Below, in pieces: positions 13,499 through 59,506 of a DNA stretch of 64,000 nucleotides. The notes beneath the pieces were generated by a model, which was not told where the DNA came from, searched no databases, and was given only the letters and a program-made list of their open reading frames with translations. The DNA is from Marsupella aquatica. Lineage: Eukaryota > Plantae > Marchantiophyta. The position numbers and the translations under genes are program-made. Numbering within the stretch: position 1 is the first letter of the stretch; each line of letters opens with the position of its first letter. Location of the stretch: assembly GCA_973895155.1 (NCBI GenBank), contig OZ316893.1, forward strand, positions 11,413,660-11,477,659, read 5' to 3'.

Positions 13499-13500
13499 AG

Positions 13501-36000: not shown

Positions 36001-37034
36001 CTAAGAGCGATGCTGGGCTTCAAATTGGTGGTCTGTAGCACTTGCCCAGTCATGGGGCAAGTGTTGGGCCTCTTGTCATCCTCACACTGCTTGAACCAGC
36101 GCTCTATGGCACTCCTCTCATACGTTTGACCGTTCTCGAGTGACACCGGATCCACCATCACCTGCTTCGTCAGAGGGCACACGAATGCTTCATACAGAGG
36201 CTCGATCCGAGCGTGTAGACGTTGCTGAGTTTCGGATGATGGACTTGGATGGTCATAAACTTGTACCCAGCTTTCAAAAATATTCCCTATGATGTCAACC
36301 ATGTGAAGATCGTATGAACCCCTTCGATTGTGGTCCCCTGTGTCGTTGTAGCCCCCTCTGTTCCGTGTGTTGTCACTGGTAGGGTCCCCCATGTCTATGC
36401 TAGAGTCCTGCATGTCGTTGCGGAGGAGCTCCATCTGGTCCTTGAGAGCGTTGGGGTTGCGAGGCAAGTCTTTCAGGCCCACGGTGCGGGCAATGTCCAT
36501 AACAATTCCAGTCTGCACTGCAATATCAGTGGGGACGGAATCCGTCTCCTCAAGCGAGCGGTAAATTCTCTCCTCGGTCTCCTGCACCTGGTATTCGGCC
36601 TTCTGCATTTCTTGCGAGAGAGAATCAATCAACTGCTTTGTTTCTGGAAGGTCCTGAACTGCTGAGAGCGGAACTAGGCCTATGGACCGTCCAATGCTAT
36701 GAGTCACGCTCTCAAGCTGTTTCACAACTGATCTACAATGGGTTAGCAAGTAAATGCGACTCTTCCTGGTGCAAATCTTGACCAGCTGGTTGGCATTTTC
36801 CACGTCGTTGGTCAACGAGTCTATGATCTGCAAGAAATTGGGTGAGCTCTCCCGGGCTTTGTTGACCTCAACCACAATGGGCACTAAACGCTTCAGATAC
36901 TCGCCCAGCTGCAGAAAGTTCTCTCTCTCCCAGTGCACTCCGTTGACAGAATTTTCCACGACGGTCAGTTTATCAAGCAGATTATGCCCAAGAGTCACCA
37001 CTCCAGGTAAATCTACGGACTGTACATCAACCAT
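33070..37034 (-). CDS. Plant U-box/ARM-repeat E3 ubiquitin ligase with N-terminal UND region (SAUL1/PUB43/PUB44 class, NOP1-like), 1074 aa; exons 37034-35727, 35548-35239, 34676-33070
   Basis: U-box IEPLYEAFVCPLTKQVMVDPVSLENGQTYERSAIERWF...CPMT...LKPSIALRNTIDEW; ARM repeats; SAUL1-type CPVHGGVCSSKETFCLVEA and AEKCLKHLNKIPNFSGVF C-terminus; in-frame GT-AG junctions. Confidence 0.93.
34708..34785. repeat. Three tandem copies of about 27 bp in U-box gene intron 2
   Basis: agac(a/g)catagcctcgtaac...gacc repeated. Confidence 0.75.
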
Positions 37035-39097
37035 TTTCGAAGAAACTTGAAGAAGAATTTTCCTACATTGTCAGATAGACGTTCAGGGTCAGTGGCAGGC
37101 ATTCATTCAAAGCACCATCTCACATTCATCAAAGAGGTGGAACAGAGTACCATCTACTTGCGGACGTGGACCAGGACCAGGACCAGGACCAGACCAGGGG
37201 AAGACCGTAACAGATGACGCGATGTAATCCGTCTACTCAAAGTCGTTAATCAGCGAGTAAGCTCTCAACTTTTTGAACTCGAACATGTCAACACTAATCA
37301 CAGTAATTTCTGGAGTGCAAGAACAGATAGACTCCTGTAGATAGTATACCAAAATTGTTCAAGTTCAATCAATCCACTCTTCGACGTAGAAGTGGACCAA
37401 CAGACGAGAGAACCTTTTCTCCACAGAAAGCTAATGATAATCTCTTCCCGAAGAAGTTCTACCCATTAAACCTTGGACAGCATTACTTACAATTAACCCG
37501 GTCACTTTCCTCCTCCTGAAGACTCCAGCTCTCTGCTATAGGCTCTATGATCTTACTGTCCCTCGTTCTGTCTCTCTCGAACTGTGTATGCGGGTCAACG
37601 GACGTGCGATTACTTCAAGCGGGTGGAGGAATAATTCGTGAAAGCTTACCAGTTAGCGCTAGAGTACGGAGGCACTGCCCAGAGTTGGAATCTTCTTCCG
37701 GTAAAGGCGCATTATATCTTCCCTGCCTGCTTCACTCCGTCCCTTTCCTTTCCTTTCGTCCCCTCTGCACTAATTCCAAGACTTGCTTGATTTCCTTTGG
37801 ATTGATTTTATCTGATTGCAGCCGGCGAGAGCAGCGGACTCCACGATAAACGAACCGAAAGAATGAAGAAATCTGATCAGCCTTCTCAAAATTGCCCAGA
37901 TGTTGCCAGTCCACCGCGTATAGCAACTCTACTGCTGCTGCTTCTCCTAGTGCCCATTCTCGGACGAAACAAGTGCAAATCCTCTGCGCCAGCGATATCC
38001 TTTCTCAAACTCCCATCGACTCTTGCAACCTGCTCTCCTCCTCCTCCTCTGCGCGCCTCGGCTCTCATCTGCTCTCTGCCCTCTGCCCTCCTTCCTGCGC
38101 AGCTCATGCCACCGTCTAGTCGCCAACCCAAGCACCGTGCATGCGAAGACAGAGACGAACACTACACCTCCCAGAATCGTCTAGAACGGATGACCATACC
38201 CGTCTCTCATCCACACTTCCTCCTCCTACACCGATTCATGAAACGAGGTCGTTGGGCGACCGGGCAAGAGAGAGGAAAGGGCTGGGCTGAGCTCGGCTAG
38301 GCTAGCCAAGGCAAGGCAAGGCAAGGCAAGGCTGACAAACACACAGGGGTGATCGTCTGAAACAGATTCTGAATGACACGATAGGCCAGGGGCCCAGGGC
38401 TGAACCGAGAGTACCTGCGGAGTAACAGGAGAGAACAGGTCAAAGCTGAGAAGGTTGTGGGTAGACTTTTGTGGACAGCCTCTCCTCTTGTCGGTAGCTC
38501 CGCACGAACGTCACCAGAAGCTGACTGAACACCACCATCCCGACAAACCTCTGATTATTAGTGCCGATCAACCTCATCAGACCCAAAGTTGTCGATGGCA
38601 GAGATGAGAGCTCTACTACAGTAGAGATAGTTAGAAATACTGAGAGATTGAGAGATTGAGAGGAGGCGAGCTAAATCAAGGGAGGATGGAGAGACCCACG
38701 AAGTTTTCCACCATTATTGTATTCTCTACTGCCGATTGTACCCATCGCAGATTCCCCCCGTCCCAGTTCCCAACAATGAAAATGAAATGAGGAGCAGGGA
38801 ACCGAACAGCAGAATGAGGGACAATCTTTTCCTATCATCTTCGATACATCGAACTATCGAAGCTCTGAATCAGAGATTTCGCCGCCTGAGATGGGTCGGG
38901 ACTGTTATGTTCCCTCTGTTTTCTGTCTCCTCACCGATTTGCCAGCCAGCTTGACGGCCAGCCAGCTAGGCCACCACGATCCGAGGAGGAGATACGAAAA
39001 TGGCAGCTGGGTCCTGAGCCCTGAGTGACGGTCTGTTTTGATGAAGAAGTCAACTGCTCGCTGCGTCAGATTATTGGCACCGTTTTCTCTGTGGCGA

Positions 39098-40070
39098 AAT
39101 TTTGCCAAATTTTATTCACCTCACTCAAACGTTTTTCGCCGCTTTTAGCTAATAAAAACGGTGTTTGGCCACTCGTGAAAGAATAAGAGGTTTATCAACC
39201 TCAAACAAAGTACAATGAAATTAAAGAAAAAAGTGGTACAAATAAAAAGAGGTCTAAAGTGGCCAAACACCAAACAAGTAAACAACAGAAGGAAATGCAA
39301 ACCTAAAAACTAAAGAAAATGAAAGGGAATAATGTCAAATTCCACCTCACTCAAGAATTTTCCACTCTTTCGGCTGAAAACGTTTTTGGACAATTATTAG
39401 TTCAAATTGGCCAAATTCGACCTCTCCTTAAAAATCTGGCCACTTTTGGCTAGAACTCTTTCAATATTTCCACCTCGCTTTTAAGAATGTGGCCACTTGT
39501 AGCAAAGATTGGCAGGTATTTTATCTTCTCTTGGAGCATCCACGCTCAAAAGGGGGAATATATACAAACTTTTTATAGAAAGGGACCCAACAGAATACAA
39601 AAGAACAAACAAAAGAGGGTCCAAGTGGACAAAACCAAACGTAACAAAAATGAGCAATAGGAAACCAGTAAAAACCAAGAAAGAGTAACTAAAACTAAAC
39701 TCTCAAAACATTTTGGACACTTTTAACTCAAATTTCACTCCACTTTTAAGAATTTGCCACTTTTGGCTAGAGCTGGTCTAATTCTACCTCACTTTAGTAA
39801 CTGTGCCGACTTCTAGCTAAAAATGCCTGCTGGTTAAAATTGGACATGTGTTTTGTCTTCTATTGGACCATCCACTTTTAGATCAAAACGTTTTGGACAC
39901 TTTCAGCTCAAATTCGCCAACTTCCACCACACTAAAAAACTCTGGCCACTTTGAAGTAAACCTCGCCAATTTCCACCTCACTTAAAAAAATGTGGCCACT
40001 TGTAGCTAACAACGTTTAGGATGCCGTTGGGTAAAATTGGACAGGTATTTTGTCTTCTATTGGAGCATCC
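39098..40070. repeat. AT-rich degenerate array of recurring motifs
   Basis: Many copies of aattccacctcactt, (c/g)tggccactt(t/g)t(g/a)gcta and ttttgtcttctattgga.catcc. Confidence 0.7.
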
Positions 40071-41636
40071 CCTACGCTACTGGGTTTGGTTATTGTACCG
40101 AGGTGTTGATCACACTCATTCATTTCAGGTCCAACCCATTCATTGTAATGCTATGGGTTTTGTTGTTGTACTAATGTGTTGACCATACTCACTAAAGAAA
40201 ATGCAAAATTGCAGGCCCAACCCATTCATTGTAAGGCTATGGGTTTCCAGGGACCAAATTTTATGGTTAGTGGATCCGTGTGTCCAATAGATTATACAAT
40301 AGATGACTGGTTCATTGTTGGGTTTTACAAGATGGCAATCGCTCATAGTAAATTGTTGGTCTCTACTGTTTAATTAAATGATCCCTTAAGGGTTGGGCTG
40401 CTTTTCAGTTGGTCCTGATAACTATGTACAGTCAACTAAAGCAAGGACCTTGTCAACCTGGGTATTGAATGTACCGAGCAATTAAAACCCCATACCGTTG
40501 CATATGATTTTTGCCAGTTTCTCGCCAAAGAACCTATAGCCAGAATCCTATTCCTCCTAATCAAAAACTTTTAGCAGTTTCTAGCCAGAGACCCCATGGC
40601 CAGAATCTGATCTTAAATTTAGGGAGATCTAATGGTGATATTAAAACTTAAAAAATAGATAAGGGCTATTCTTTGCATTTTCTCTTCACAACAAGCCAAA
40701 AACCTTAAAAATTAAGCTGATGACTATATGAATTCAGCAGCGATGATTTCTTTTTTATATTTTTTATTGAGTTGAACTGGCAAATGCTCTCAAGGGCGAG
40801 AAAACCCTGGTGAGACCCACCTAATGCTTAAGTCCAAATAATACTACAATTCTCGAAAGTTGTTACATCTGTCCTGATGTTAAAGGAAGAGGGTAATCAC
40901 ATATTCAAAGATCTGGCAAATCCAATTGCAGCTAAAGGCAAAATTTCGCTTTTTCTCCCCTTATTTTCTTTGTATCATTTGCAGGTAGGCGGAGATTTTG
41001 CCCCAATTTTATGGGAGGCATTCACTATTTCAACTCCCTCACAAGAGAATCATTGCTGCTGACTCGTGCTCCCTCTCCCCTAATCTGACTCAGCAAGGAG
41101 TTGACATTTCCAACCTCCTGCCCTGGACTTGAGGGGGGCTTCACAACAAATTAAAGAACTTGGAGGCAGTCAAATTGTTTGAGTGTCTGAGATGCAATTG
41201 TAACCATTCAAATGTAGGAACACATCAAACTTCACTTTCCATGAACTTGGGAGGACAATGTTGCAAAACCATTACACATCCTAGTCACCTGCTAGTGGGC
41301 CCCAAAATGATCCTTTTGGGCTGATGTTGCAATGCTAATTTATCAAATAAGCAGACCAGGTGGTCTAAAGATTGAACAGTTTGTTCCATTTCTGTTCAGG
41401 ATCTTGCAATTATTTTCACCACACTCATCTTGGCTCAGGCATTTTAACTTCAGTGTATGGAATGGACCTTATGGTTGCAATCTGCAAGGACTTTTTGTTG
41501 CCCCTTAACCTTGGCAGCATCCCAACGGAACAAGCAAGACCAAACAAATTGTAAATCCATACCCTCAAATCTAATAGTGGCGGCCCAAATGGAAAAGGGT
41601 CCCATAATCTGCTTTGGCTCTTGTTAAATCATCAGT

Positions 41637-42499: not shown

Positions 42500-44118
42500 A
42501 AGCATCAAAATACTTGATGGCCCATCTACAGTAGCTAAAGATATTCCTAACCCTTCAAATATACTTAATGGGCCCCTTGTCCCTTTAACCCTTTCTCAGG
42601 ACCAGTCATATTATTTTTTCTATTCTTTTAATGTAACATGACTGGACTATGTCAGTCTATCAGATATACTATCTAGAAGCAATTTTTAGTGTATTCTTAT
42701 TTAAAATACTTATATAACATATGTGCAAAGTAATTAGCTCCTGTCACTCTCATATTCATTTTAAATCACTCTTGCACAGAAAGTAGGGAGTACTTATTTT
42801 CTTTACTTATTCCCTAACAATTACTAAAAGATTAGATTAGACATGGAGAAATGTTTAAAAGTTTTGATGAGTTTAATGGTTGCCTTCATTCAAGGAATGT
42901 CCTGCATGGGAGGGCTTCTGCCTGGTTGAAAACAAAATACATGTTTCATGTTCATGTTTGTCGTTTTGGAACCACTTTCCAAAGGTCTTGTAGCAAGGTT
43001 AAGGGAGACCACCCTGAGGCTTGTGAGGACCAATCAGATTGCAGAAGGGACCCTGAGGATTGTGGAGATGACAATGGTGGCTATTGTTAGGTATTTATTC
43101 AAGGTCTAGGGTTACAACATGTAACCAAAGTTAGGCTAACCGTAGTTGGAGATGTGGTTAGGTTAACTAGAATGTCCACTATATGTCAAACAATGTTTGC
43201 TTGGATAAGTGAAACTTAGGCTCATTGTTACGGATCCAATCGAGAGATAGAGAGAGTTTGTGCTATGAAAACTTGGTATGGCCGGTCGGTCTAGAGTGCA
43301 ATAAAGCTCTTGTGTGTTCCCGTGGACGTAGCCTCATGTGGAGGTGAATCACATATCTCTCTGTGTCGACTACTTGATCGTTGGATGTGTCATGTGCTTA
43401 CCGTTGCGATCATTGTTTATGCTCAATAGCTATTGCGTAAATTGCCTGAAATACTCTACCTAGGTGCTCACACCTAAATAACAAATATCACACAAATGAC
43501 ACCAAGGAAATGCTCACGTCTAGGATGAATATTTCCAAAAATGTTTTTGGAAAAATAGTATCAAAGAATTGTTTAACTCCCACATGATTTATTTGCAAAA
43601 AACAACTTCTAAAAAATAGCACCCAAAACCATGGTTCACCTTCCTATAGTTCAGGTAAGACTGTGCTTTGAAGGAATACTTTCAGGGTATGAGTAATTTC
43701 AAAAAATGGAGAGAAAATAACTAAGGAGAACAAAAATTAGGTACCTTAAGTACTACTTCCCTTGCATAAGTATTTCAAAACATGAAACAACTGAATATGG
43801 GAGTGAGAAGTGCTAAATAATTCATACATAAATTATATACTAATTTTCAAATAAGAGTACACTGAATTGCTTCTAGACACTACATTTGGTGGACTCACGT
43901 AGATAGTTGTATAGTATGTTCGAATTCAAAAATGGAAAAAATAATATGACAGGTCCTGACAAAGGGTTACAGGGACAAGTGGCTCCATTAAGTATATTTG
44001 AAAAGTTAGGGGCTCCTCAGCAATATCTTTAGCTAGAGGGGCCATTAAGTATATTTGAAAAGTTTGGGGCTCGTGGCGAATATCTTTAGCTAGAGGGCCC
44101 CATCAAATATTTTGCTGG
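42500..44118. mobile_element. Non-autonomous element with long diverged terminal inverted repeats (Mutator-like/foldback)
   Basis: About 42500-42820 is the reverse complement of about 43710-44118; e.g. cttgtccctttaaccctttctcaggaccagtcatattattttttc vs gaaaaaataatatgacaggtcctgacaaagggttacagggacaag, and tctagaagcaatt vs aattgcttctaga. Exact ends and TSD not resolved. Confidence 0.7.
43085..43428 (+). mobile_element. Solo LTR (family B) nested in the TIR element
   Basis: TGTTAGG...CTCAATA (terminal CA mutated); TSD GCTAT at 43080-43084 and 43429-43433; homologous to 14737-15081. Confidence 0.9.
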
Positions 44119-45548
44119 AAAAATACGCAAAATTGCTAGCGAAATACTTTTCCCCGGATCTGATGGGTTCTGATGTCCAGGTAATAATTTAAAAGTTGAT
44201 CGGGTCCCAGCGACCCACTTGCAGCAGGCTAAAGTGGCCCTAACACTGAAATAAAGGGAATGACTACAGTAACTCATTTATTTCTGGGCATGGTCAAATG
44301 GAACTTATTACTTCTTTGTTTGTTGTGACATTTCATTTGAATGAAGACAAGGGAAGTCCTGTACCATTGAGGTTACCTATAAGGGTTCGCTGCTGGCCAT
44401 TAATTATGTGTGACATTTTTAAAAAAAAAATTCCAGCAATTTACAATTACTAAACAGAAAGAAAGAAGCAGGTTCCACGGCTCTTCTCTTTGGTTAGGGT
44501 CTTCATGATGGGTCATTTATTAAAGTCACAGGGACTGATGGCAATGGCATAAGACTAATTTGCAAAAAGTTATGGACTATGAATTTCATATAACTACAGT
44601 AGGGAGTTAAGGTACATCAAAGTGAGTTTTGAGTTGTCCTAGCTTTGAGAGGCCTTAATGTTTTTTAATGGTGAGCACAAAATATATTTGGATGTAAAGG
44701 GTAAACCATGATCAATGGGCTAGGAATCTACATTTGCCTCATCTATCACACATCAGATTATTAGTGCTAACATTCACTCACTTCTATGAGTAGCATATTC
44801 ACCTCGAGCTTCACCATTTAATAGTGGTCTGTAGCTCTTTTGGATTTTAGTGATTATTGGCAGGTTACAGCTGGTTCCTGGTTCCCCTAGGCTATTGGAA
44901 GCAAAAAAAGTTCTGAGTGTCACTAGAGGCAGCTGAACCCCACTTTTTGGGGGTTAGAACCAGGCTTTGTAATCAAAGAAACTTTTGGGGGGTTATGTGT
45001 GTAAAGTCTGCTCAAATCAAAAAGAGTTCTGAGTGAGCACGCGCAATATGACAGCATTTAATGTGAATCCTGTTTTTTTTATAGAAGTAAATTAACATTC
45101 CCTCGCATGGTGAATCAGCTCTAACTTTTCTTTGCGTCGAACAAATAGAGAGACATATGCTTGATGGGCCCTCTGGTGAAACATTTTTTACTTGATGGGC
45201 CCAATGAAACATTTTTTACCCAATAGGCCCCTACAAATTTATTTTTTACCTAATAGTCCCCCTCTTAATGAGCCGTACTCAGTGTTCTTGTGAGGTGCCA
45301 AACTGTGTAGTTAACCACAACGAAATTCTAAATAGGGCGGGGGCAGGTTTAACCATGAAGACATATTGCATTATGTATTCCGAGCTTGATGCCTATTTCT
45401 TAGTGACAGAAACAAGTGCCCAATGGCCAGTGACAAAAAAAGTGCTAGTGGAAATACCAGGATCATAATGACCACACAGTCATGTCCTCCAAATTGATAG
45501 TCGCAGATCGAAAACATCAAGAAAACAGCATGTGAAAGTAAGCCCTAT

Positions 45549-45880
45549 TGTTAAGGATTGCTCTTAGTCTTGTGACTCATAGGTTACGGCACTTAGGCTA
45601 ACCACAGTTAGGATCTTAGCCGAGGTTAGGTTAGTTGTGTGTGACCTTGTATATACCAGGGCTAGTGTAAGCCGCTGGTGTGTGGTGCTTACTCATTGTA
45701 ATAGAGCAACTTGAGGAAGAGGGAGAGGATGTGTGTTCGTCTACTCTTGAAGTAAAGCTTGAGTGTTCATGTGGACGTAGCCTTGGAGAAAAGATGAACC
45801 ACGTAGAGATTGTGTCGACTACGTGTGCATGGAATGAATCATGGTTGTATGGTCGTTGCGAATGACATCTTAGTTCAACA
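45549..45880 (+). mobile_element. Solo LTR (diverged family B variant)
   Basis: TGTTAAGG...TTCAACA; TSD CCTAT at 45544-45548 and 45881-45885; shares the GTGGACGTAGCC...GAACCAC...TGTGTCGACTA core. Confidence 0.88.
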
Positions 45881-46534
45881 CCTATGACTACCCCGTGTTA
45901 TAGTAAAAATTCAAATCCAAAGACATAATCCATATTGTCTTCACTACGCAGTTTGGGTAGCGGCGACCGCAATTTTGCGATTCTTATAACCCCGTTATTT
46001 GACCATTTTGTTCGACTGCGCAAGGTTGGGTGTGGGGTTCAACAGTGCACTTGGTCATTGTATCAAGAAAAAATTGGTTAGATGCAAAAGTGTAAAAGGG
46101 AGCCTATTAGATAAAAAAAAGTTTTGAAAGAACCATCAGGTCAGGTAAGAAAGTTACGCCAGAGATCCCATCTAGCATATACATACACAAATACACCTCG
46201 TACTACAAAGCGAAGTGCATGAGCTCGTTCCTGGAAAGGCTGGAAATGTAGACTGCTGTCACCTCACGCCAAAGATTAGCTGACCGAAATTGGGCCAAGG
46301 TCAATCGCCCTTAGCGTGATCCATAAATCTGTAGCACCGCACATTGCACGAGAAGAAGGTGTGACACTTCGTGATTGTCCCCGCCATGCTCTCAGCCAGC
46401 CAGTCAAGTCAGTTCACCAAATCCTCAAAGAAGACGAGTGATATCGAGCTGACGAACTGTCAACAGTTGCTCACTCACACCATTGAGGAACTACACAGTG
46501 TGCGCGCTCTTACAGCAAACCTTGGACAGTCGGA

Positions 46535-46865: not shown

Positions 46866-49141
46866 GTCATCGTTCTGTCTACTATAGTGGAGAAGTGACA
46901 TTCGGCGTATGATTTTTGTTTGGCATAATTGGAAGAGAAATTATGGTGTCGTGGCAGAGATCCCCATGAAGCTCCTTTATTAGCAGAGCAAACAGACGGA
47001 TTCTCCATCATCATGCTCGGGACCAATATTAAACATGGTTGGCTTATGTTTCATTGACCGACTGACCTTAATTTGGGGATATGCTAGATGGAGAATGATA
47101 GAGGGAAGAAGACTTTGGCCTTGTTTGAGTAAAAGAGTAATATTTACGGTGAAATTTATAAGTAAGCAACGTGTTAGTTTCTTGCATGCCAAAAATGCAC
47201 TTTAATTGTTGTTTCCCCAGTTGGCTCTATATGCTTGTCCTGATTTGATTTCTCATTTTGTGGTGACATCTGACTACCAAAATTGAGAGAGTTGTCCGTT
47301 CTGGGAAATTATCTATTATTCTCTTGTTTGGGTAGAAACCTTTAGGGTTTAGGGTTTAAAAACTTCAACCAATTGCCCAATGCATATGGCTCCAAGAGTC
47401 ACTAAAACTGAAAATGAAGCTCCTATGGACCAAGCAGGGAACCCTACAACACATATGAACTGGAACACCTCTTACACCTTCACTCAATGGCACCCTTATT
47501 GTTTCTAAGACATTTCCAGCAGCAAAGTTTGACCTTCAATAATCCCCTCTATATCCAATGGAATCTGTTTCTTGGGGGTTTGTTAGAAACGGCTTGGTAA
47601 GATATTTCCAATGATCCTATTACGATCAATGGGATAATCAGATGCATTGAATTTTGAGAGACCTAAAGAATTCTAAAGTTGACTTCTAAAGCTGAGTGGT
47701 GTGTTTGGAATTTAACTTCCTCCCCATTTCCTGAAACAACCAACATACTTTTCCAGACACCAGTTTTTGGACATCACATTTTGCACTAGGACCCACAATG
47801 TTTACAGTAATTACTCTTGCACGAATCTGATAAACCCTAAGGCAGCCAACGAGGCATTGAACTACTGTAAGGACGTTCAGTTTTGTGCATGCCCTTCTTT
47901 GAAATCTTGATATTTTTACCTTTCAAAGTTTAGATCTATGCCATAAATGATTCCCTACATTTCAATTTTTGCTCTGAAAACAGTGTTTTAACTTTAAAAT
48001 TGGAAGATTATCCCTAAATATGCATGGTAAATTTGTTCCGTTTCATAAAAGCACCTTCAAATCTCAATAATTACTTATTTATTGAACAAACCTGATTGTC
48101 AATAGGGTATGTTAGAGCATCTCCAGCGGTCCTTTAAAATAGTCTTTAATCTCCATGTCATGCCGAGGGACAGTGCCGCTTGTGCACATCGGCATGTCCC
48201 TCGCATGCCCGCTAGGTATGGTTAGGGCTAGTGTACTACTTGAGTTAGTGTCATGTTCTTGTAGCGAGTCTGGGCTGTTCTTGAAGCAAAAGGGGTTTGT
48301 TAGTGTGACGCCTGGACCCGGTCCTACTTAGGGCATGTTTTTCTCTGCCATTCTTCAGTTCTTCTTGAATTGCTGTGAGACAGAGTTTTTCAGAGGCTGC
48401 TCGTCGGTTCCGTACACGGAATTCACACAGTGATTCGTTAGATGCTCCCGGCCGATCTTGGCATCTCGCCGGTTTTCGATTCGATTTCAGTACAATTGTT
48501 TCTCTTACGCCTTTTATTCAAGAAGAACTGTCGAGTTAGCGGTGAAGGGAAGAAAATTGCTCGTGACGATTTCGACAATTTCTGGTGAAGCCATTGCAAT
48601 TTCTTTGACGGACATCGGAGTGACGAGTTAAAAGTTATGGGTTTATTGTGGTGTTATGTGTATACTTAAGTGTATACACATAACAAGGGGGCCCAGGTTT
48701 TTTTTTTCCGGCCGCAACCTTCTTTGTCACCTACATCGGCGACTTGCTGCTGACTGCACAGGCCGTTGCGCCCCCGCTCGCATTTTTATGACACTTTGGG
48801 GGGGCCCCTTTTTCGTTAGTTTTATGGTCGCATTCCCGGCCACGGCTGCCGGCGAGTTTGCCTCGGCCACCTCGCGACTACCTCGCGACTGCATAGGACC
48901 GAGCCCCTATTACATCCTTACGTTTTCGGCCATGCGCCTCCCCTCGGCACTTCTCCCCTTCCCGGGCATTTTCGTTTCATCTCGTTTTCCGATGCACTTG
49001 CCAGCTTCCTGCCATTACAATTAAAACAGGGGAGAAGGAGCGAGAACCAAGGGCACGAGGCCCTATGGAGAATAAAGGAGGAGGGGGAGTTGAAGCGAAA
49101 GCAGGGCACGAGGCCCTAGGCAGCTCTGAAGCATTAAAGAG

Positions 49142-49485
49142 TGTTGAGCATAGACGACATTCGCAACGGCAAGCCCATGAACCATCCAACGCACAATAGT
49201 CGACACAGAGAGATACGTGGTTCACCTCCACATGAGGCTACGTCCACGGGAACACACAAGAGCTTTACTGCACTCTAGGCCGATCGGCCATACCAAGCAT
49301 ACACAGCACAAGCTCTCCCTATCTCTCAACTAGCTCCGTAACAATGAGCCTAAGTTCCACCAGGGTCTGGCATCAGCCCTGGCTATATGCACAACAGCAC
49401 TAGCGCTAACATTAGCTAAGTCCTAACCCGAGTTAGACTAACTGTGGTTAGCTCATGAGTCACAAGACTAGAGCAATATCTAACA
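49142..49485 (-). mobile_element. Solo LTR (family B) inserted antisense in the gypsy leader
   Basis: The minus strand reads TGTTAGA...CTCAACA; TSD AAGAG at 49137-49141 and 49486-49490. Confidence 0.92.
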
Positions 49486-50070
49486 AAGAGGGGGGGGGAG
49501 TACATTCGACTCCCTCTCTCGGAAGTCCTCCTGCAGGGCACGAAGCCCTTAATTCAGCTTTAAAGAGGGGGGGGGAGTACTCGCGACTCCTCTCTCGGGA
49601 GTCACTCGCTGCCAGGGCACAAGGCCCAAAAGGGGGATAGGGGGAGCTCATAGTGGGGCATGAAGCCCTATGCAGGGCCCGAGCCATTAAGTTGTCACCT
49701 CGCCTCAGCCTCGCCTCGCCTCGCCCTGCAGCATAGGGTACCGTGCCTCCCGAGTGTGCGTACACCTGCTTCTTTCCGGCCTCTTTTTCTTCCAGGGAGC
49801 CCGACGATGTATCCACATTGGGCACCGACCGGTGCCCTTTATGTGTATACACAGACCCCTGTCTATACACATAACGGAGGCCCCTTTTGGCCGTTTCCTC
49901 TTGTTTTCTTTCCATTCATTTTCTTGTGAGCATATTTTCGACAGGGCCGGTCTACACATTTCTGCCTCGCAGTGTTGTTTCCTTTGTGGGTTACATTTCA
50001 TAGCCTTGGGGTTGCCACACCTTTTTCTTGTCAGTTTCTTTCCTATTGGCACCCCGGGTGAGCATGCAGC

Positions 50071-52900
50071 ATGTCAGCAGAGGAGCCGAGTCGTAGCAGC
50101 TCATCGCCACCGACACCCCGGTACCACTTACGGAGTGATCCACGACCGTTGGTGCCAATTTCATTGGAGTCTCGGCAATTTCAACGACGTCCACAGACAG
50201 CAGCAGCACCCACACCACGCAATCCTCCTGCTACATTTGGCGGTCGCTTCACCATTACTCCGAAGCCTGCTATCACTTCATTGCCATTTACCCCTTCTGC
50301 ATCAGTGGTTGTTCTAGCTTCACCGACATACAGCATGGATGCTAGCCACTCATCTGGCCGCATTGAGCGCTTCAGCGGGCGGCCAGGCACTGTTTCTTTA
50401 TGTGAGTTCAAATCCACTTTCTACACTGTCGTTTATGAATTGGAGTTGAAGTACGGCAGCAATTTCACAAATGCTTTTGCATTTAAGCAGCTAGCCAGGT
50501 ATGTGCACCACGAGGCTTTGGATGTGTATGAGCAGCATTCTCAACGGCTACTTGCTGTCACACAGTTGCCTAACCCTACCTATGCCAGTGCAATTGCGGC
50601 TGCCTCACAACTGGCATTACAGAATGCCATTGCAGCCCATGCTGCTGCTCCTGCCACTTCCCCTCCTACTCCAGTTCCCACCACTGCACCAGTTACTCCC
50701 ACTGTCTTGGCACAGGCTACATCAGGCATTTCTCCCACCATTGATTCCCCTGCCTTTGCTGATCCAGTGGCTGAGTTTTTCCAGGTTCTTGAATTGGAAT
50801 TCCCAATCAAGAGTGCTGACAAAATCATGCAGTTGGCCACCTTTGTGAGGCAGCGCGATGAAACATTGAAGATGCTGTATCGCCGGCTTCTCAAGCTGAA
50901 GGAAGACACCCAGAGCATCACTGACCTGGAAGCTGCACATCGCTATCTTCGTGCATTGGAGGGCACACCAGCTCTCCACTCGCAAGTGTTGCAGCAAGTA
51001 TTCTCAGAGTTTGGAGACAGCTACACCTTGCTCAATGTCTATGACACTTCTGAGAAACTTGAGTTGGCCCATGCACATTATGAAGCCAGTATTGCGCGTC
51101 CACCGCGATCCAGGTACCAGGTTGCTGCCCCTACACTGGCCACTCCTTCCCGTGTGCCACAGTATGGTTCCAAGACCAAGCCAGTACATGCTGCTTTCAT
51201 GCTGCCATCTTGCAACTACTGTGGTAACCCCAATCACAAGGCTAATGAATGTGATATTGTTGTTGAGGACCTGTCTTGTGATTTTTGCGGAAAAGTGGGC
51301 CACTTGGAGGCAGTTTGTTTTGCCAAATTCCCAGAGAGGAAGCAGCTACGACAGCAGGCCCCTCATCCTGCTCCTGCTTCCACTCCCCCACCAGCTAGGA
51401 GGGCTCCTATTGCCTCAGTTGCTCCTCCTTCCAGTGGCAAAGCACCCGGTGCCAACAAACCGCCCAAGCAGCAACAGAAGCAACCAGCTCAGAAGGAGGC
51501 TCACAACGCACAGGCAACTCAACTCCAGTCTTTGACTCATGAGGTTGAGTCCCTACGTGCCCAACTTGCCAACATCAAAGGCAAGTCAACTGCCTCTGCT
51601 GGTCCTTCTCAACCGGCTGGTCACGTGCAACCCATCCCTGGCCCCGGCACCACTGACAGTTCAGCCCCTCTACCCCGCTCTTTCTATGGCTTGCCATTTG
51701 ATGCTCATATGGGTGAGTGTGTATTGTCCTCTGCTACACAACCTGGCCTTACAGCAGAATTTTCAGATTCATTCTGCCCTTCCTATTTTGCATACCAGCA
51801 GGCCAGTGCTGCCTCCCGTATTGCTCCCACACGCCGCATTGTACAGGCTGATGGTCTTGCTGCTGGTCCTATGACTAGAGCCAGGGGAGCTCGGGCTGTC
51901 ATGCCCCAATCTTTTCAGCCACTCACACTTGCTGAAGAGCGCACCTTGTTGGCGAGGGGGGAGGGAGCTGCAGCTACATCCATTCCACCACCAGGTGCTG
52001 CTGACATTTCACAGGGAGTTGTTTTTCCTGCGCTGCTTGAGCACTTCACCTCCGGTATGGCACAAAGGATTCTTACCACTCCACTTTTCAGTTGCCATGA
52101 TTTACAGCTGGATGCTAGAACTGTCATCAGAGCGCTAGAGGGCTCACTGCATTCTTCATCAGCCCCTGTGACACCGGTTTTGGAGGTCCAATCTCATGTA
52201 AATATTGGACCTTCTTCTTCTCCATTGCATGCTTCCACTGGTTTGGCTATCCTAGTACCGATTTCCAGTGGTAGAGATGACAATATTGCTGCAGATTGTG
52301 TGACGAGAGCTACACTTGATTCTGGTCATGTTGCTCCATCTTTCCTGGCTATGCTGTTGAGTGGGAAGACCGTGGACACTAACTCCCTTCACAAGGTACC
52401 TCATCATTTGCCAAAAGTGGTGCCTAGTGACAGGACTTTAGTTTCCACCACCATTGCCATTGTTGACAACAGGAATTCAGCAGTCAAGTTGGAGGGTCAC
52501 ACTCCTCAGGTGGTCATGCTAGACACAGGTGCTCAACCAGTAATCTTGGGCATTCAGTTTGCCAAGAAGATGGGACTGTTGACTGATCATTTACAGCCAT
52601 CCAAGTGACATATTTGGACTGCTAGTGGCACTGTGGAGGATGTGCTGGGTGAGAGTTCTACTTTACTCACTCTCACTTTTAATGGAGGTACAGATCAGGA
52701 ACTGCATTTCCCAGTCAGATGTTTGGTTACCAATGCCACTACGTATGATGTGCTCATTGGCCAGGAGGCTTTGTTCCCACCAGGTTTTACCATTGACAAC
52801 TGGCATGAGCATGCATACTACAGAGTTGATTGGCATACGGATGGCTCACACTTGGGATACATTCCACTGGATTTGCATGGTGCCCATACCCCTATGGCTC
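50071..52900 (+). pseudogene. Gag (two CCHC knuckles) and aspartic protease of the gypsy element
   Basis: CNYCGNPNHKANEC and CDFCGKVGHLEAVC from 51211; VMLDTGAQPVILG at about 52513; YDVLIG. One in-frame TGA at 52606; the frame continues as HIWTASGTVEDVLGE. Confidence 0.88.
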
Positions 52901-53181
52901 ACCACTGTGTGTTGAAAGCAGTGCACACAACTACCTATGTCAACCACCCATTCCAGGATTGGATTGAGGAGGATGATGATGAGGTGGCTACTGCACATGC
53001 TGCTGCACGTATAGCAGCACTTTCCAGCAACGTGGATCATCAACCAGAGGTGGTACAACGGCTCCAAGCAGCCCATGGACCTTTGGTGGCTGCATTGCAC
53101 AAATTTGAGGACCTTGGGCAGCATCATGGACAACCAATAGCCCCAATCTTGAGCGCACCAGTTACATGGACTCCTCCTTCA

Positions 53182-54470
53182 GATGGCCTTACATTGCTTG
53201 AGCTTTTTGGTGGCATTTCTACAGGCCTGGAAGCTCTCCTACAGTCTGGCATGGTGGTGAAGCAGTACATCTATGTGGATATTGATCCAGGTGCAAGGCA
53301 AGTGGCTGAATCCCATCTGCTGGAATTTTCAGAGCGATTTCCTCAGCAGTTTCCACACAGTGCATGGAAGTCTGCATTTTCTTTCTTTCCTCCAGATATC
53401 CAGCTTGTCTAGCACCGGCACTTAACCCTTCTTGGCTCCCTTGATTTGATCATAGCTGGTTGGGAATGCCAAGGGTTTTCAACTGCTGGTCACGGTGCTG
53501 GACTGCATGATTCTCGTTCTGGCCTTTTCACAGCATTGGTTCAGATTCTCACCTGGGCTCAATCCCTTTATCCTGCTGTTGGTTATATCATTGAGAATAC
53601 TCCATCTCAGTTTGACCAGCGTCCACAGGTCAAAGAGGATTTCAGTGTGGTCCAGCACTACTTGGGACCACCCCTTCTCATTGATGCAGTGCACTATGGT
53701 TCTTATGCACATCGTCTTCGTAACTTTTGGACTAACCTTGCACCACCTTCCTTGCTGGAGATGGCTCTTCACCACACATCCAGGGACACTAACCTTACAG
53801 TGGACCAGATTTTGGATCCTGACAGTTCTTGCCAACCAGTTACACGGCAAGAGCCAGCACCTTGGTATCCAGCTAATACCATTGGACAACCCCGTGCTGC
53901 TTGGCCTACATTTGTGTCCTTTCCAGGTGCACATGCTTTTCAGGGTGATGGTCCTGGGCTGGTTTATCGACATTCTACCGGTACATGGGATGAACCTAGT
54001 CCTGAGGAGAGAGAACGGGCTATGGGCTTCCAACCCGGTACTACAGGTCACACCAAAATCACCAGGCTGGCCAGGAATGCTTTAATCAATCTATTCATTA
54101 AAAGTGAATTATTATTCAATTTGTGAACATTTGGGCAATAGAAAGTGTACATTTGGCTTTCAAAAAGTGTACATTTGGGCAAGAAATAAAAGTGATGGCC
54201 ATCAGACATACCACCATGTTCATCTTTTATAAATGAACTAGGATGAGACTCCTTCTAGTAAAGATCATTTTTTCTCCCTCAAGTTTACAATTGACTATTT
54301 AGGTGTAGAGTATTGTACTATAGTATACCTTTTGGGGTTAAAAAGTGTACATTTAGAGACCAAAAAGTGTACATTTCGAGGCCTAAAAGTGAACAAAATA
54401 AAATACACTTTTAATGAATAGGTGATTTTTACTTGGCAGGGTAATGGATCTCAATGCTCTCACTTGGCTT
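53182..54470 (+). pseudogene. DNMT3-like cytosine-5 DNA methyltransferase domain in frame with gag-protease; one TAG at 53410, MITE at 54085-54428
   Basis: Motif I LLELFGGISTGLEAL, II YIYVDID, III DIQLV, IV DLIIAGWECQGFS (Cys at 53467), VI YIIENT, VIII IDAVHYGSYAHRLRNFWTNL, IX ERERAMGF, and X RLARNAL|LGRVM after MITE removal. Confidence 0.88.
54085..54428. mobile_element. AT-rich MITE with terminal inverted repeats and TTA(/TTTA) TSD, possibly Tourist/Harbinger-type
   Basis: ctattcattaaaagtg near the left end vs cacttttaatgaatag near the right end; internal aaagtgtacattt repeats; TTA at 54082-54084 and 54429-54431. Removing it restores the DNMT frame. Confidence 0.85.
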
Positions 54471-54779
54471 CTGGTCACTTGCATCCTTTTTCAGATGTAC
54501 ATTCCTCCAGCATTAGGAGCTCCAGCCCTACCCCTCCACAGTGCTGCTACATGGCATCCAGACCAGGTGCACTTACCTCTATTCAACACTCACCGCTTCA
54601 GTCCAAGTGTTGGGAGGGAGGAGGTCCCTTGTAATGTGGTTGACATTATTTCTGAGTTTCATGGTGTGGATCAGACCAGAGCAACAGATACAGCAGGCCT
54701 TGGAGAGGCCTCATCACCTTATCAGCAGCATGCTAGCAACTTGGACAGTGGAGAGGCTGGCACTTCTGGCTCTTCAAGC

Positions 54780-57700
54780 ACGAGTACATCCTAGTGTTGC
54801 CAACTACACATTTATCATGGGCAACCACCTGAGTAAAAGACAGAAGGACCAGTTGTTGAATTTGCTCCTCAAGCATGAGAATGTGTTTGCTTTCTCTATG
54901 AAGGACTTGGGTAAGTGCAAGACTATGCAGTTCTCCATTGAGTTGGCTGATGAAACACCTATCTTTAGGCGGAGACACCGTTTGAGTAAGCATGAGTGGC
55001 AGCTGGTGGATGAGAGGTGCCAAGAGCTTTATGAAGCTGGTCTTATTCAGCCATCTACATCAGATTTTGCGGCAGCTACAGTGATGCCAGCAAAGAAGGA
55101 TTCCAGTGGATTGTGGACAGAGAAGCGCATGTGTGGGGACTACAGGCCATTGAACCTGGTCACACCCCAGGACAGGTACCCCATGCCGCGGCCAGAGGAG
55201 CTATTTGACAGCATTGGAGACTCAGACATCTTCACTCTTGTGGATCTAAGGCAAGGCTTCAACCAGATTTTGCTGCTTGCAAAGGATCGCAAGAAAACAA
55301 CTTTCCATGGTAGTAACCAACTATGGGAGTGGTTGGTGATGCATTTGGCTTGAAGAATGCGCCCATATTCTTTCAAAGAGTCATGGACCAGGTTCTGCAA
55401 GGTGCTGAGTTTCTGAAATGCTACATTGATGATGTGTTGGTCCACAGCAAAGGATTTGACCAGCATCTACTTGACCTTGAGGAGCTATTCATGAGGCTTA
55501 AGAAGGTGAACCTAAAGATACACCCCAAGAAGTGTGAATTTGCTATCAGATCAGTAGTATATCTTGGGCATCGCATTCTTCCAAATGGAACCATGGCTCA
55601 TTGGGCCAAGGTGGTATCCATCTTGGAAATGCCCACTCCTACCGATGTTCACACTTTGAGGAGTTTTATTGGGTTGTGCAATTACTACCGGATCTACATC
55701 AAAGATTTCAGTACCATTGCACACCCATTGTATGCTTTGTTGAAAAAGAATGTGACTTGGACATGGAGTATAGATGCTGAGGCAGCATTTGCCACTTTGA
55801 AGGAGAAGCTCTCAGAATACCCGGTGCTGAGAAGACCTGATTTCAACAAGGTCTTTGTGCTACACACAGATTGGAGTGCCCTTGGGATTGGTGCCATTCT
55901 GGGCCAGCATGATGAGGAAGGTAAAGAGTACGTCATTGCCTATGCATCCAGGAGCAACAATCAGGCAGAGAGTCATTATTCTTCTTATGAGGGTGAATGC
56001 CTTGCTGTTGTGTGGGCTGTCATACATTACAGGCCCTACCTCTATGGGACCAGGTTTGTTCTCTACACCGACCACCAGCCCTTGAAGTGGTTGAAGACCA
56101 ACGACGAGCTTACTGGCAAGCTTGCTCGTTGGGCACTCATACTCCAGGAGTATGATTTTGAGGTAATTCATAGGCCTGGTGTGACACATCAAAATGCTGA
56201 CACTATGTCCCGCAGCCCTTTGATTGCCTCTGATGATCCCTCAGATGCACGGCAGGATTTTGACCAGGTTTCCATCCTGCCTACATTTCATGCATCTACC
56301 TATCTTGCTTTGCTACCATGCTACATTGTTGACCAACCTGTGGTGGACATATGGGAGGACAGCGACACTCTGAGATTTCTGCAGGATGGGGAGTACCCCA
56401 CCCATGTTACTGCTGCCCAGAGAGACCGAATTCAGCAAAGGTCCAAGCGCTACTTGTGGAAGGGAGATCATCTTGTGCGTTGCTTGCCAGACAGGGAAGT
56501 GGTGGTTCCACCCATTCATGAGAGGGTTGGCCTTATCCGTAAGGTACATTCTGAGCTTGGTCATTTTGGTGTTAAGAGGACTTATAGCCTCTTGGTCCCC
56601 CATTATCATTGGAGAGGCATGCATGGCCAGGTTCGAGATGTTATTGCCCGGTGTGAGCAGTGTGATAGGGTAAGGACTTCTTTCACATCTTGGCAACCCA
56701 CACTTCATCCACTCCCTATTCAGGGCATGTTTTATCGTTGGTCATGTGATTTGGGTGGAGAATTACCCCTCACATCTCGGGGTAATCTCTACATCATGAT
56801 CATGATAGAGCATTTCTCCAAGTGGATAGAACTTGTGGCATTGCCGGATAAGACCTCCCGTAGCACCAGCCAGGCATTCTTGCAACAAGTTCTCAGCCGC
56901 TTTGGAGCTTGTGCAGAATGTCTCACTGACCAGGGCTCAGAGTTTAGAGGAGAGTTCCAGGAGCTGCTTGATCAAGCTCTCATTGATCATCGCCGGACAT
57001 CACGAGATCACCCACAGGCAGATGGCTTGGCAGAGCGCATGGTTCAGACATGCAAGAAGGGCCTTCGGAAGATCTGCCTCACCAAAAACAAGGAGGATTG
57101 GGACCTGGCCTTACCCTACATTGCCATGGGGTATAGGATGTCCAGACATGCATCACTGTCTAACTTTTCTCCCTACTTCTTGTTGTTTGGTCGTCACCCA
57201 GTTCCACCTTCTGCTATTGCTTCTCACATGCTTCAGGTGGTGGACTTGGATTCAGCTGTGACTTGGTCTGATGTGATCTCTGAGAGGGCTGCCCTACTCA
57301 GGAGGGTTATGCCCATGGCCATGGAGAATTTGGCCATTGCACAGCACAGGGACACACTGCGTTATGCACACACACGAGGGGGCACTTTTCAGCCCAAGGT
57401 CAGGAAGTTTGAAGTGGGAGATTTTGTGTACTTGCAGCGGCAAGCTAACGACACCCTGGACACCTCTACCAGTCGCACTATTCTCAGGGTCAAAGCTATT
57501 CGACCGTCTGGAGTGCTAGAGTTACAAGGGGCAGATGGGCGCACAATTGCTGACAATGCCAAGAATTGCGCCCCTTGTCATCTGCCTAACCTGGATCCCA
57601 CCATTGTGACTTCTACTTGGATTCCACCTATGGACTACCCTTGCAAAGTGTGTTTGCGAATTGATGATGCTGACCAGATGCTGCTGTGTGACAATTGCAA

Positions 57701-57794
57701 TGGAGGGTACCATCTTTTCTGCCTTCGGCCTGAACTTACCCAGGTGCCAGAAGGGTTATGGTTTTGCCCTTCCTGTGCTCCACGTGCTATCTGA
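54780..57794 (+). pseudogene. Gypsy RT, RNase H, integrase and C-terminal PHD finger
   Basis: RMCGDYRPLN, DLRQGFNQI, (MP)FGLKNAP with a 1-nt deletion near 55342, YIDD at 55422; RNase H LHTDWS...EGECLAV...YTDHQPL; integrase HSELGH...CEQC, WSCDL...TDQGSEF...GLAER; Cys4-His-Cys3 PHD at 57642-57777. Confidence 0.92.
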
Positions 57795-58392
57795 CTTTTC
57801 TTCAGCCCTCCTTTTGGCTGTGGTCTGGGGGGGGGGGGATACAAAGGTTTACACCTCCACTACGTACATACCACCTCAGTTGCTTTTTCTTGGCACCTGT
57901 GAATGTGATTGGACTTTTTCTATGCATGTTGGTTGCTAGCAGCTTGCACATATGCATTGCCGATGACTTGTATGTTTTCGATACACTATGGCTACGATAC
58001 TATATGTCACGACATCCACATTTTGGGGTTTCCTGTCAGAGTTTAGCAGCCTGCCCCTTGGCCCTTGGAGCCAGTGCTGGGGAGTACTACACTTTGTCAC
58101 CTGAAGCGGCTTGTCCTCTGCTATATTCTTCATGCTAACGGATAGTGATATTTGATGCATCCATTCATTTATCAAGGTCAAAAGATAACCTCAAGGCTAA
58201 TCAATGCAAATTAGCCCATGAGGTTAGGGTGCTGCCCACCTATGCCTGACCTAAGTATTGGCATAAATCATAGTTGCACAGTTTCCGACATCAGCCACAC
58301 CCTGGGTGAGTGGTGGGAGCACAGTAGTGAGGTAAGCCAGGTCTTGGGCTAGAATTCTGTTTGTGGTAGGGGATACCTTTTACACACATGAC

Positions 58393-59115
58393 ACCCAAAA
58401 GTGGGGTTCATTTGCACCTTGTTACACGTCAAAAAATATTCAGCGCGAATGACAATATCTCCCTGCCCGTGACCATCCCCATTGGCTGCCCGCGAAAGAA
58501 TGTGGACGTGAATTTTTCTAAGTGTCAAAGTTGATGAATGAACCCCACTTTTGGGTAGGGTTTGTTACAAAAGAGAACTGTGCCAAGCAGGATTTGAACC
58601 CCTGCCCTGTTGGGCCCAAGTCTGCTCGACTACCACTCAGGCAGCGTCTACTGCACAGCTGGTAAGGCTCTTTTAATTGTAATTACATTTGTTCTAGTGT
58701 CGGGCAATGGCCGCGGGCTGCGGGGAGCCATATCACAAGTCGTACGGATTTTGACATTAATATGCATCGATATTGTCAATCGTTGTAAATAAAAAAACTG
58801 GAGAGAGCCGGCGCTAGGTACAGGAGGCTCATAATGAGTCTAATCCCATCAAAAAATAGGATTTCATTCGCAGCTTGTTACACTCAGAAAACACACTTCA
58901 AAAAAATTGGAGAGAGTGGGCAGCTCACCCAAAAATGGGGTTCGGGAGGCTCATAATAAGCCCCATCCCACCCCAAAATGGGATTCATTTGCAGCTTGTT
59001 ACACTAAGAAAACACACTTCAAAAAATTGGAGAGAACAGGCAGTTATGTATGGGAGGCTCATAATGATCCCCATCCCACCCCAAAATGGGGTTCATTTGC
59101 AGCTTGCTACACTCA
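58393..59115. repeat. Repeat cluster: inverted CCCAAAAGTGGGGTTCATT motif plus tandem units of about 115 bp
   Basis: The motif at about 58394 is inverted at about 58537-58556; gggaggctcataat...cccaaaatggg(g/a)ttcatttgcagcttg occurs three times between 58820 and 59110. Confidence 0.75.
58579..58646 (-). other. tRNA-derived fragment or SINE head with Pol III A and B boxes
   Basis: Minus strand: TGCCTGAGTGGTAG (A-box-like) about 30 nt upstream of GCAGGGGTTCAAATCCTGC (B box in a T-arm-like stem). No full cloverleaf. Confidence 0.4.
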
Positions 59116-59506
59116 AGAATAATTCAGAGCTTGTTACAATTGGAAAAAATCAGAGAGAGCCAGATGAGGATAGAGGGCAGTGGCCCTGCCAGTAATCACA
59201 CATCAAAATGTGTTAATGTATGACCTGCACTCATTTATGTAGTACACCATATATGTCATATTTTGATTTGATGTGCACTTACCAAGACCAGGGCAGCAGG
59301 TTTGGGCTACTAACATTTGGGCAACCACCATTTGGAAGGCTCACTATGAGCCTCCAGGTTGCCTTTCCTCCTGACTCCCTTCTGGGTACAAACTACACCT
59401 TGGTACCACATGGTGAGATAAACTATGATGAATAACGTGATTCCAGGACTGACTTGCTCTGCCTCCAATTATGGTCGGTACTTGCAGAAAGTCCACAAAG
59501 GAAATA

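What the first reader, a model, noticed from the sequence alone, without database searches (positions are those of the whole stretch)
50071..57794. Ty3/gypsy retrotransposon whose polyprotein contains a DNMT3-like DNA methyltransferase between protease and RT
Seen: gag, protease and a C5-methyltransferase domain with motifs I-IV, VI, VIII, IX and X in canonical order lie in one reading frame. That frame is broken only by two point stops (52606 TGA, 53410 TAG) and a MITE, and is followed by RT-RNase H-integrase. Established knowledge: the segments resemble the DNMT3 family. As recalled from animal DNMT3A: LFGGISTG vs LFDGIATG, IDAVHYGSYAHRLRNFWTNL vs IDAKEVSAAHRARYFWGNL, TRLARNALLGR vs SRLARQRLLGR. 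DNMT-carrying retrotransposons are known from dinoflagellates and a charophyte alga (Klebsormidium), but are not a standard part of land-plant LTR lineages. Inference: this is a land-plant lineage that encodes its own methylation writer, presumably released by the element's protease and packaged with the cDNA, and may self-methylate new copies or remodel methylation at target sites.
Basis: partly seen in the sequence, partly recalled or inferred. Interest (0 to 1): 0.95.

Follow-up and report, generated by a model that had tools for sequence, protein, structure and literature searches.

The report
Land-plant retrotransposon carrying its own methyltransferase
This is a broken copy of an abundant land-plant jumping gene whose protein includes a DNMT3-like DNA methyltransferase kept under selection, likely used to methylate its own new DNA copies, and whose split end repeats likely arise because it primes its own copying and its integrase opens the copy at an internal palindrome.

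Summary
Confirmed and extended. 48156-58014 is one Ty3/gypsy-type insertion (TG...CA, 4-bp target duplication) encoding Gag-protease-DNMT-RT-RNase H-integrase-PHD. Two stops, a MITE and two frameshifts are private to this copy. The DNMT is DNMT3-like by profile (E 7e-23) and fold (Z 29), and is under purifying selection (dN/dS about 0.09, like gag). Close relatives occur in Calypogeia, Sphagnum and 80 metagenome loci; 254 clusters score E<1e-30, many with the DNMT between RNase H and integrase instead. Family copies read A-coding-B-A-B, as in Klebsormidium KnitGypsy-Dnmt3. A 15-nt self-priming duplex with two compensatory changes ends A, a G-run starts B, and B|A is a palindrome. So the reverse-transcribed LTR is likely B-A, joined end to end and reopened at the palindrome by integrase (inferred). 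Self-methylation is plausible (strong CpG, not CHG, depletion here) but unshown; the Klebsormidium domain was inactive in yeast. New variant of a known kind; I found no land-plant report in print, and one review says land plants lack such elements. This scan noted the same family twice before on other DNA.

The parts
48152..48155 (+). left copy of the 4-bp target-site duplication (TCCA)
   Evidence: sequence
48156..48517 (+). terminal repeat A (starts TG); only copy in this insertion
   Evidence: joints 58014>48156 and 48517>57845 in runs X1-X3; homologous arrangement in L003, L009, L010, L029, L058
48356..48370 (+). predicted transcript 5' end and self-primer
   Evidence: 15-nt perfect complement of 48516-48530; shuffles reach at most 10; relatives have a TATA box about 25-30 nt upstream of the same site
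48516..48530 (+). self-priming primer-binding site at the right edge of A
49142..49485 (.). solo LTR-like insertion of another family in the 5' leader (TG...CA, 5-bp duplication); not part of the element
   Evidence: three more copies in the window; joint 49133>49490 in X1, X2
50071..51400 (+). Gag with two zinc knuckles (51211-51252, 51277-51318)
   Evidence: Pfam zf-CCHC below cut-off; atlas look-alikes Retrotrans_gag 0.92; dN/dS 0.10
52477..52878 (+). aspartic protease, broken by TGA at 52606-52608
53170..54506 (+). DNMT3-like C5 methyltransferase, broken by TAG at 53410-53412 and by the MITE between motifs IX and X
54085..54431 (.). 347-bp MITE with about 21-nt inverted ends (boundary ambiguous by 4 nt)
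   Evidence: joint 54080>54428 in 4 of 4 runs
54802..56213 (+). reverse transcriptase (YIDD at 55422) and RNase H; frame breaks near 54788 and 55341
56352..57626 (+). integrase (HHCC, DDE core, C-terminal part)
57627..57794 (+). PHD finger and stop codon
   Evidence: Pfam PHD E 1.4e-11; PDB matches
57827..57838 (+). G-run polypurine tract directly before B
   Evidence: same position in relatives
57839..58014 (+). terminal repeat B (ends CA); only copy in this insertion
58015..58018 (+). right copy of the target-site duplication (TCCA)

Best explanation
This is a dead, short-form copy of a multi-copy land-plant Ty3/gypsy family whose single Gag-Pol polyprotein carries a DNMT3-like methyltransferase under purifying selection, which likely methylates CG sites in the element's own new DNA, and whose split repeats likely come from a self-primed B-A repeat that is joined end to end and reopened by integrase at an internal palindrome. 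Shown: domain order, one frame in relatives, selection, DNMT3 fold, 4-bp duplications, A-coding-B-A-B ends, the self-complementary primer site, the G-run before B, the palindromic B|A junction. Inferred cycle: RNA starts inside A1; its first 12-15 nt pair with the site at the end of A1 and prime minus-strand DNA (as in Tf1); plus strand starts at the G-run; ordinary strand transfers then give B-A-coding-B-A. The two free ends (A end, B start) are joined, integrase cuts the left GACA-GC-TGTC palindrome, drops the two middle bases and inserts A-coding-B-A-B. Copies with one repeat unit (this window), from a one-repeat circle, from use of both palindromes, or from later B-B recombination, would be dead ends. 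The DNMT travels in the particle as part of the polyprotein (established for Ty3-type Pol domains, untested here) and the PHD likely steers insertion by reading histone H3 tails.
For: One frame: P0473 spans knuckle-protease-DNMT-RT and P0492 spans DNMT-RT-RH-IN-PHD. Selection: window vs 80 loci, DNMT dN 0.24, dS about 2.5, dN/dS 0.094 (62 unsaturated pairs), vs gag 0.10, protease 0.09, RT 0.04; catalytic Cys in 78 of 80, motif VI Glu in 73 of 80. Family: profile ranks DNMT3A (7e-23) over DRM (3e-12) and M.HhaI (1e-9); model of the unbroken L003 domain pLDDT 92, Z 29.4, rmsd 2.5 over 271 residues to DNMT3A vs Z 25 for bacterial enzymes. CpG across codon boundaries 26 seen vs 158 expected (0.16) in the element, 0.38 in the neighbouring Copia, 0.73 in host exons; CHG not depleted (o/e 1.17). 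Related dinoflagellate retro-DNMT3s methylate CG de novo in yeast (PMC5890265). Ends: 11 of 20 distinct right ends long, 8 short, 1 ambiguous. Self-primer: perfect 15 nt in the window and in 9 of 19 scorable relatives, two compensatory changes between the families. B|A junction is GC or its C-to-T decay products in 15 of 15. A|B joint is altered in 5 of 16, always at the exact end of A, including a resected B (L034) and an inversion (L044), as expected of a joint made anew. A1/A2 and B1/B2 share subfamily indels within a copy. Retroviral integrases can cut a palindromic LTR-LTR junction (PMC1905944 abstract).
Against: No activity shown; the Klebsormidium domain gave no methylation in yeast (called inconclusive, PMC5890265). 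Motif IV is E-C, not P-C, in this clade (75 of 80 loci). In the relatives' loci junction CpG o/e (median 0.37, 60 segments) equals that of 2 DNMT-less gypsy segments (0.35), though NCG codons are rarer (0.05 vs 0.13-0.19); only one control element lies in the window. Copies decay at CG and CHG alike (0.21 vs 0.21-0.28), so host methylation acts on them anyway. The model does not explain why the mirror product (A-B-A-coding-B) is absent: 0 of 20 distinct left ends are preceded by B. The window's A lacks a clear TATA box. 8 of 19 relatives keep 10 or fewer paired bases. Short forms could partly be assembly collapses; no long read spans this one. No RNA holder was available.
Confidence: 0.62

Rival explanations
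1. Same element, but the DNMT domain does something other than methylate the cDNA at CG: it binds or shields nucleic acid, methylates RNA or non-CG sites, marks the insertion site, or serves the host.
For: E-C instead of P-C in motif IV; no activity of the Klebsormidium domain in yeast; CpG control in relatives is flat; the PHD finger could bring the enzyme to chromatin.
Against: Cys, Glu-Asn, both motif VIII arginines and the SAM motif are kept across 254 distant clusters' sample; whole DNMT3 fold predicted; strong CG-only depletion in the window.
Confidence: 0.25
2. The ends are copied in a PAT/DIRS-like way: the transcript carries B-A-B, the A|B joint is inherited, and the internal junction only templates two ordinary linear ends; no end-joining or junction cleavage occurs.
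For: Same repeat order as PAT-like DIRS; explains at once why no mirror form is seen (0 of 20); 11 of 16 A|B joints are exact.
Against: A ends exactly at a self-priming site and B starts exactly after the G-run, which makes B-A the unit a standard LTR cycle would copy; aberrant joints fall exactly at the A end; no fixed B1/B2 or A1/A2 differences.
Confidence: 0.2
3. A one-off capture of a host DNMT3 piece or a nested insertion, now decaying.
For: This copy and all 80 loci are degenerate.
Against: Same position and spacing in all loci that cover it, dN/dS 0.09 at saturated dS, open frames through the domain, depth over the DNMT equal to gag and RT, relatives in algae.
Confidence: 0.01

Closest known systems
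KnitGypsy-Dnmt3 of Klebsormidium nitens (de Mendoza et al. 2018, PMC5890265; read: abstract, results, discussion, part of methods, passages of the review file; figures not seen)
   Same: Ty3/gypsy domains, intronless unpermuted DNMT3-like domain in the polyprotein, purifying selection, DIRS-like repeat order.
   Different: Here in a land plant at very high abundance; self-priming and the permuted-repeat reading are not in the text I read; its domain order (Fig. 4c) could not be seen; Klebsormidium RTs form their own clade, not clearly sister to this one.
SymbioDIRS-Dnmt3 and SymbioLINE-Dnmt (same paper); EpiLTRs (bioRxiv 10.64898/2026.05.21.726589, passages)
   Same: Retroelements with their own C5 methyltransferase; SymbioDIRS also has split repeats and shown CG activity.
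   Different: Tyrosine recombinase or LINE backbones; EpiLTR DNMTs are sister to DNMT4 and come with a DAM domain and chromodomain.
Tf1/Sushi and plant Tcn1 self-priming chromoviruses (PMC6317226, PMC4600332, passages)
   Same: Primer-binding site complementary to the RNA 5' end instead of a tRNA.
   Different: Those have two ordinary LTRs and a chromodomain; this has split repeats, a PHD finger and a DNMT.
PAT-like DIRS elements (PMC7192593, passages)
   Same: A1-coding-B1-A2-B2 order.
   Different: No tyrosine recombinase; DDE integrase, protease, TG...CA ends and 4-bp target duplication.
Chlamydomonas Gypsy-7a_cRei and REM1 (PMC9940879, one section; REM1 paper not held)
   Same: Ty3/gypsy with a PHD finger.
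   Different: PHD listed before integrase, ordinary LTRs, no DNMT reported; the RT-RH-PHD-IN proteins form a separate clade.
Host DNMT3 of non-flowering plants (PpDNMT3b; PMC6453930, passages)
   Same: Unpermuted DNMT3-type domain; de novo CG and CHH activity shown for the host enzyme.
   Different: Host genes carry DUF3444 and introns; no host DNMT3 was in my trees, so the donor is untested.

Membership tests
Ty3/gypsy | Order gag-protease-RT-RNase H-integrase | tested here: met
Ty3/gypsy | RT-RH-IN closest to Ty3 among solved structures | tested here: met
   Ty3 Gag-Pol E 1.7e-63
Ty3/gypsy | TG...CA ends with 4-6 bp target duplication | tested here: met
   window TCCA; exact in L003, L010, L034, L058, L076, L061; one mismatch L029; none L009
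canonical LTR retrotransposon | Two flanking direct LTRs | tested here: not met
   no pair in the window; A-coding-B-A-B in relatives
canonical LTR retrotransposon | Primer site after the 5' repeat and polypurine tract before the 3' repeat | tested here: met
   self-priming site after A, G-run before B
DNMT3-type C5 methyltransferase | Motifs I-X in unpermuted order with catalytic Cys, Glu, Arg-x-Arg | tested here: met
DNMT3-type C5 methyltransferase | Pro-Cys in motif IV | tested here: not met
   Glu-Cys in the window and 75 of 80 loci; Pro-Cys in 42 and Glu-Cys in 59 of 136 further representatives
DNMT3-type C5 methyltransferase | Closest by profile and fold to DNMT3 | tested here: met
DNMT3-type C5 methyltransferase | Branches with host DNMT3 in a tree | not tested
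   no host DNMT3 sequence was fetched; one search holds retro-DNMTs only
DNMT3-type C5 methyltransferase | Methylates cytosine in DNA | not testable with these tools
   needs an assay
KnitGypsy-Dnmt3 | DNMT3 in a Gypsy polyprotein with DIRS-like repeats | tested here: met
KnitGypsy-Dnmt3 | Same DNMT position and direct kinship | tested here: inconclusive
   proteins next to Klebsormidium RTs share contig lengths with Gag-PR-DNMT proteins (P0110/P0068, P0112/P0468), an indirect hint; sister relation 0.80, unresolved
DIRS/PAT | Tyrosine recombinase, no integrase or target duplication | tested here: not met
   DDE integrase and 4-bp duplication
chromovirus (Tcn1, Chlamyvir) | Chromodomain after integrase; placement among REXdb clades | tested here: inconclusive
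   no chromodomain hit, PHD instead; REXdb references were not on hand

The most novel reading that the evidence does not exclude
A large, unclassified green-lineage clade of integrase retrotransposons that integrates a circularly permuted genome: it self-primes, joins its cDNA ends, lets integrase open an internal palindrome, and ships its own DNMT3 plus an H3-reading PHD so that new copies arrive pre-methylated. It survives at very high copy number in bryophytes, and the DNMT sits in two different slots of the polyprotein in streptophyte-rich and chlorophyte-containing branches.
Probability: 0.4. Interest if true: 0.88.

Novelty: new variant of a known kind. Interest (0 to 1): 0.68.

Why it matters
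Published work knows Gypsy-DNMT3 elements from one alga, and a 2019 review states that methylase-coding transposons are absent from land plants (PMC6338049, passage, worded 'land plants, such as tracheophytes'). An abundant bryophyte family makes the open question, what a retrotransposon does with its own methyltransferase, testable in plants with genetics and methylomes. LTR finders need two LTRs, so this clade is probably missed in repeat libraries. If the end model holds, it is a natural case of integration from a rejoined, junction-cleaved cDNA, so far seen mainly as a side activity of retroviral integrases.

Tried and rejected
No whole genome is held, so copy number and intact copies in this genome were not counted; summed contig depth over the element is far above the flanks but is no copy number. 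No RNA holder listed. No tRNA gene in the window. Viral contigs: no confirmed relative with A1; only short 24-49% matches to the N-terminal motifs in 24 loci with A2, so no viral donor was found; GTDB genomes were not scanned. I expected a gradient or fixed differences between A1/A2 and B1/B2; none was found beyond CpG-type sites. L069 and L070 fell into the 'other gypsy' bin but are family copies and were dropped, leaving 2 controls. The RT tree used 72 of 113 rows and is midpoint-drawn; one or two DNMT captures cannot be told apart. The host gene search gives a non-seed land plant (best named hit Physcomitrium 52%, ferns 50-52%, flowering plants 45-49%) but not the group. Scan look-ups by sequence and by place found nothing. 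Literature searches found no land-plant report; the library lacks most subscription papers, Repbase and theses, and the figures and supplementary figures of PMC5890265 could not be seen.

Full report
Observation. One frame runs from ATG 50071 through Gag, two zinc knuckles and a protease into a C5-methyltransferase, with point stops at 52606 and 53410. Motifs I, IV, VI, VIII and IX lie before a 347-bp MITE and motif X right after it, in the same frame once the insertion is discounted. Contigs of four public runs show that other copies differ at these breaks, and depth over the DNMT matches gag and RT, so the breaks are private and the domain is a regular part of the family.

The domain. Pfam DNA_methylase passes its cut-off. 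The window domain read with X hits DNMT3A best (E 1e-5). A 39-sequence profile ranks DNMT3A 7e-23, DNMT3B 2e-19, DRM 3e-12, M.HhaI 1e-9. A model of the unbroken domain in L003 has pLDDT 92 and matches DNMT3A at Z 29.4, rmsd 2.5 over 271 residues, bacterial enzymes at Z 25. Against 80 metagenome loci the DNMT has dN/dS 0.094 at dS about 2.5 (62 unsaturated pairs), like gag (0.10) and protease (0.09), above RT (0.04). The catalytic Cys is kept in 78 of 80. Motif IV reads Glu-Cys in this clade and in many distant ones, a family trait of unknown effect.

Range. The DNMT piece found 93 proteins among 1101 candidates, with named hits in Calypogeia, Sphagnum, Closterium and Monoraphidium; the RT-integrase piece added Klebsormidium, Riccia, Tetraselmis and Haematococcus, not all with a DNMT in the same frame. 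254 clusters at 50% identity score E<1e-30. Two main layouts exist: protease-DNMT-RT (window) and RT-RH-DNMT-IN. The window's RT groups with a Calypogeia protein and three unnamed ones (SH-aLRT 100); the second layout is one side of a branch (97); kinship with the Klebsormidium rows is unresolved (72 of 113 rows). P0473 and P0492 together show one open frame from the knuckles to the PHD. All 80 loci (the best 80 of 443) are degenerate. The neighbouring host gene points to a non-seed land plant.

Ends. There is no LTR pair, yet the insertion has TG and CA ends at 48156 and 58014 with a TCCA duplication. Joints in runs X1-X3 link the right end to the left start and the end of A to the start of B. 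Five loci show A-coding-B-A-B directly. Among 20 distinct right ends 11 are long, 8 short like the window, 1 ambiguous; L061 is a solo A-B; none of 20 distinct left ends is preceded by B. De Mendoza et al. note the same DIRS-like repeat order for KnitGypsy-Dnmt3.

How the ends are likely made. I predicted and then found a primer site: 15 nt at the edge of A pair perfectly with a site inside A, in the window and in 9 of 19 scorable relatives (7 distinct insertions; 2 more keep 11-13 nt, 8 keep 10 or fewer, 3 of 22 not scorable), with two compensatory changes and, in relatives, a TATA box upstream; 300 shuffles reach at most 10. This is Tf1-type self-priming. B starts right after a G-run. The stretch from polypurine tract to primer site, which a standard cycle copies to both ends, is therefore B-A. 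The B|A junction is the palindrome GACA-GC-TGTC or its C-to-T decay forms in 15 of 15 loci. The A|B joint is exact in 11 of 16 and altered in 5, each time at the end of A. The simplest reading, all inferred: cDNA B-A-coding-B-A, ends joined, left palindrome opened by integrase. HIV-1 integrase cuts such junctions in vitro (abstract). The missing mirror form is unexplained, and a PAT-like route remains a rival.

What the DNMT does. Not shown. In the window, CpG across codon boundaries is 0.16 of expectation, against 0.38 in the Copia neighbour and 0.73 in host exons, while CHG is not depleted; that fits long exposure to CG-only methylation in the active lineage. Against it, the same measure does not separate family segments from 2 DNMT-less gypsy segments in the relatives' loci, inserted copies decay at CG and CHG alike, and the Klebsormidium domain was inactive in yeast while two dinoflagellate ones methylated CG. 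The PHD resembles those of WSTF, KDM5, BAZ2, ATXR5 and CHD4; that several of these read unmodified H3 tails is recalled, not tested.

Novelty. The kind is known (PMC5890265; a 2026 preprint speaks of streptophyte Gypsy-DNMT3). A review says land plants lack such transposons, and REXdb's paper has no mention of PHD or methyltransferase. Eight searches showed no land-plant report and no account of the end mechanism, within an open-access library. Two earlier notes of this scan describe the same family on other DNA; I saw them, and they are not independent support. Verdict: real, new variant of a known kind, interest 0.68.

Noticed in passing
window 13202-19214: Ty1/copia element with an LTR pair 97-98% alike and a 5-bp duplication; used as the CpG control.
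   Followed up: partly
window 49142-49485, 14865-15081, 43209-43426, 45548-45881: Solo-LTR-like repeat with very high contig depth; one copy sits in the element's leader and one inside the Copia element.
   Followed up: partly
window 33070-37070 (-): Host U-box/ARM gene (PUB43/44-like); best named match Physcomitrium 52%.
   Followed up: partly
P0025, P0210, P0094 and many others: Second layout RT-RH-DNMT-IN-PHD, with named members in Haematococcus and Monoraphidium; one side of a branch in the RT tree (SH-aLRT 97) and nearly so in the DNMT tree; 31 of 136 new representatives show it whole. Not found in the papers I read.
   Followed up: partly
P0015, P0033/P0098, P0068/P0110: Third layout in which a Gag-protease-DNMT frame ends and RT starts in a separate frame, which would give more DNMT than RT.
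   Followed up: partly
P0153 (Calypogeia): A second Calypogeia RT falls in another clade than the window's, so liverworts may hold two lineages (or the assembly holds algal DNA).
   Followed up: no
L044:8616-16309: Copy with an internal inversion whose breakpoints lie at the exact end of A2 and 15 nt into B; fits free cDNA ends there.
   Followed up: yes
B right end, window 57990-58014 and relatives: The CA terminus is a cluster of short CpG-rich repeats, while the coding region is CpG-poor; methylation there could bias which palindrome integrase uses (speculation).
   Followed up: no
window 11051-11393, 39112-40073, 58367-59130: Degenerate tandem repeat arrays.
   Followed up: no
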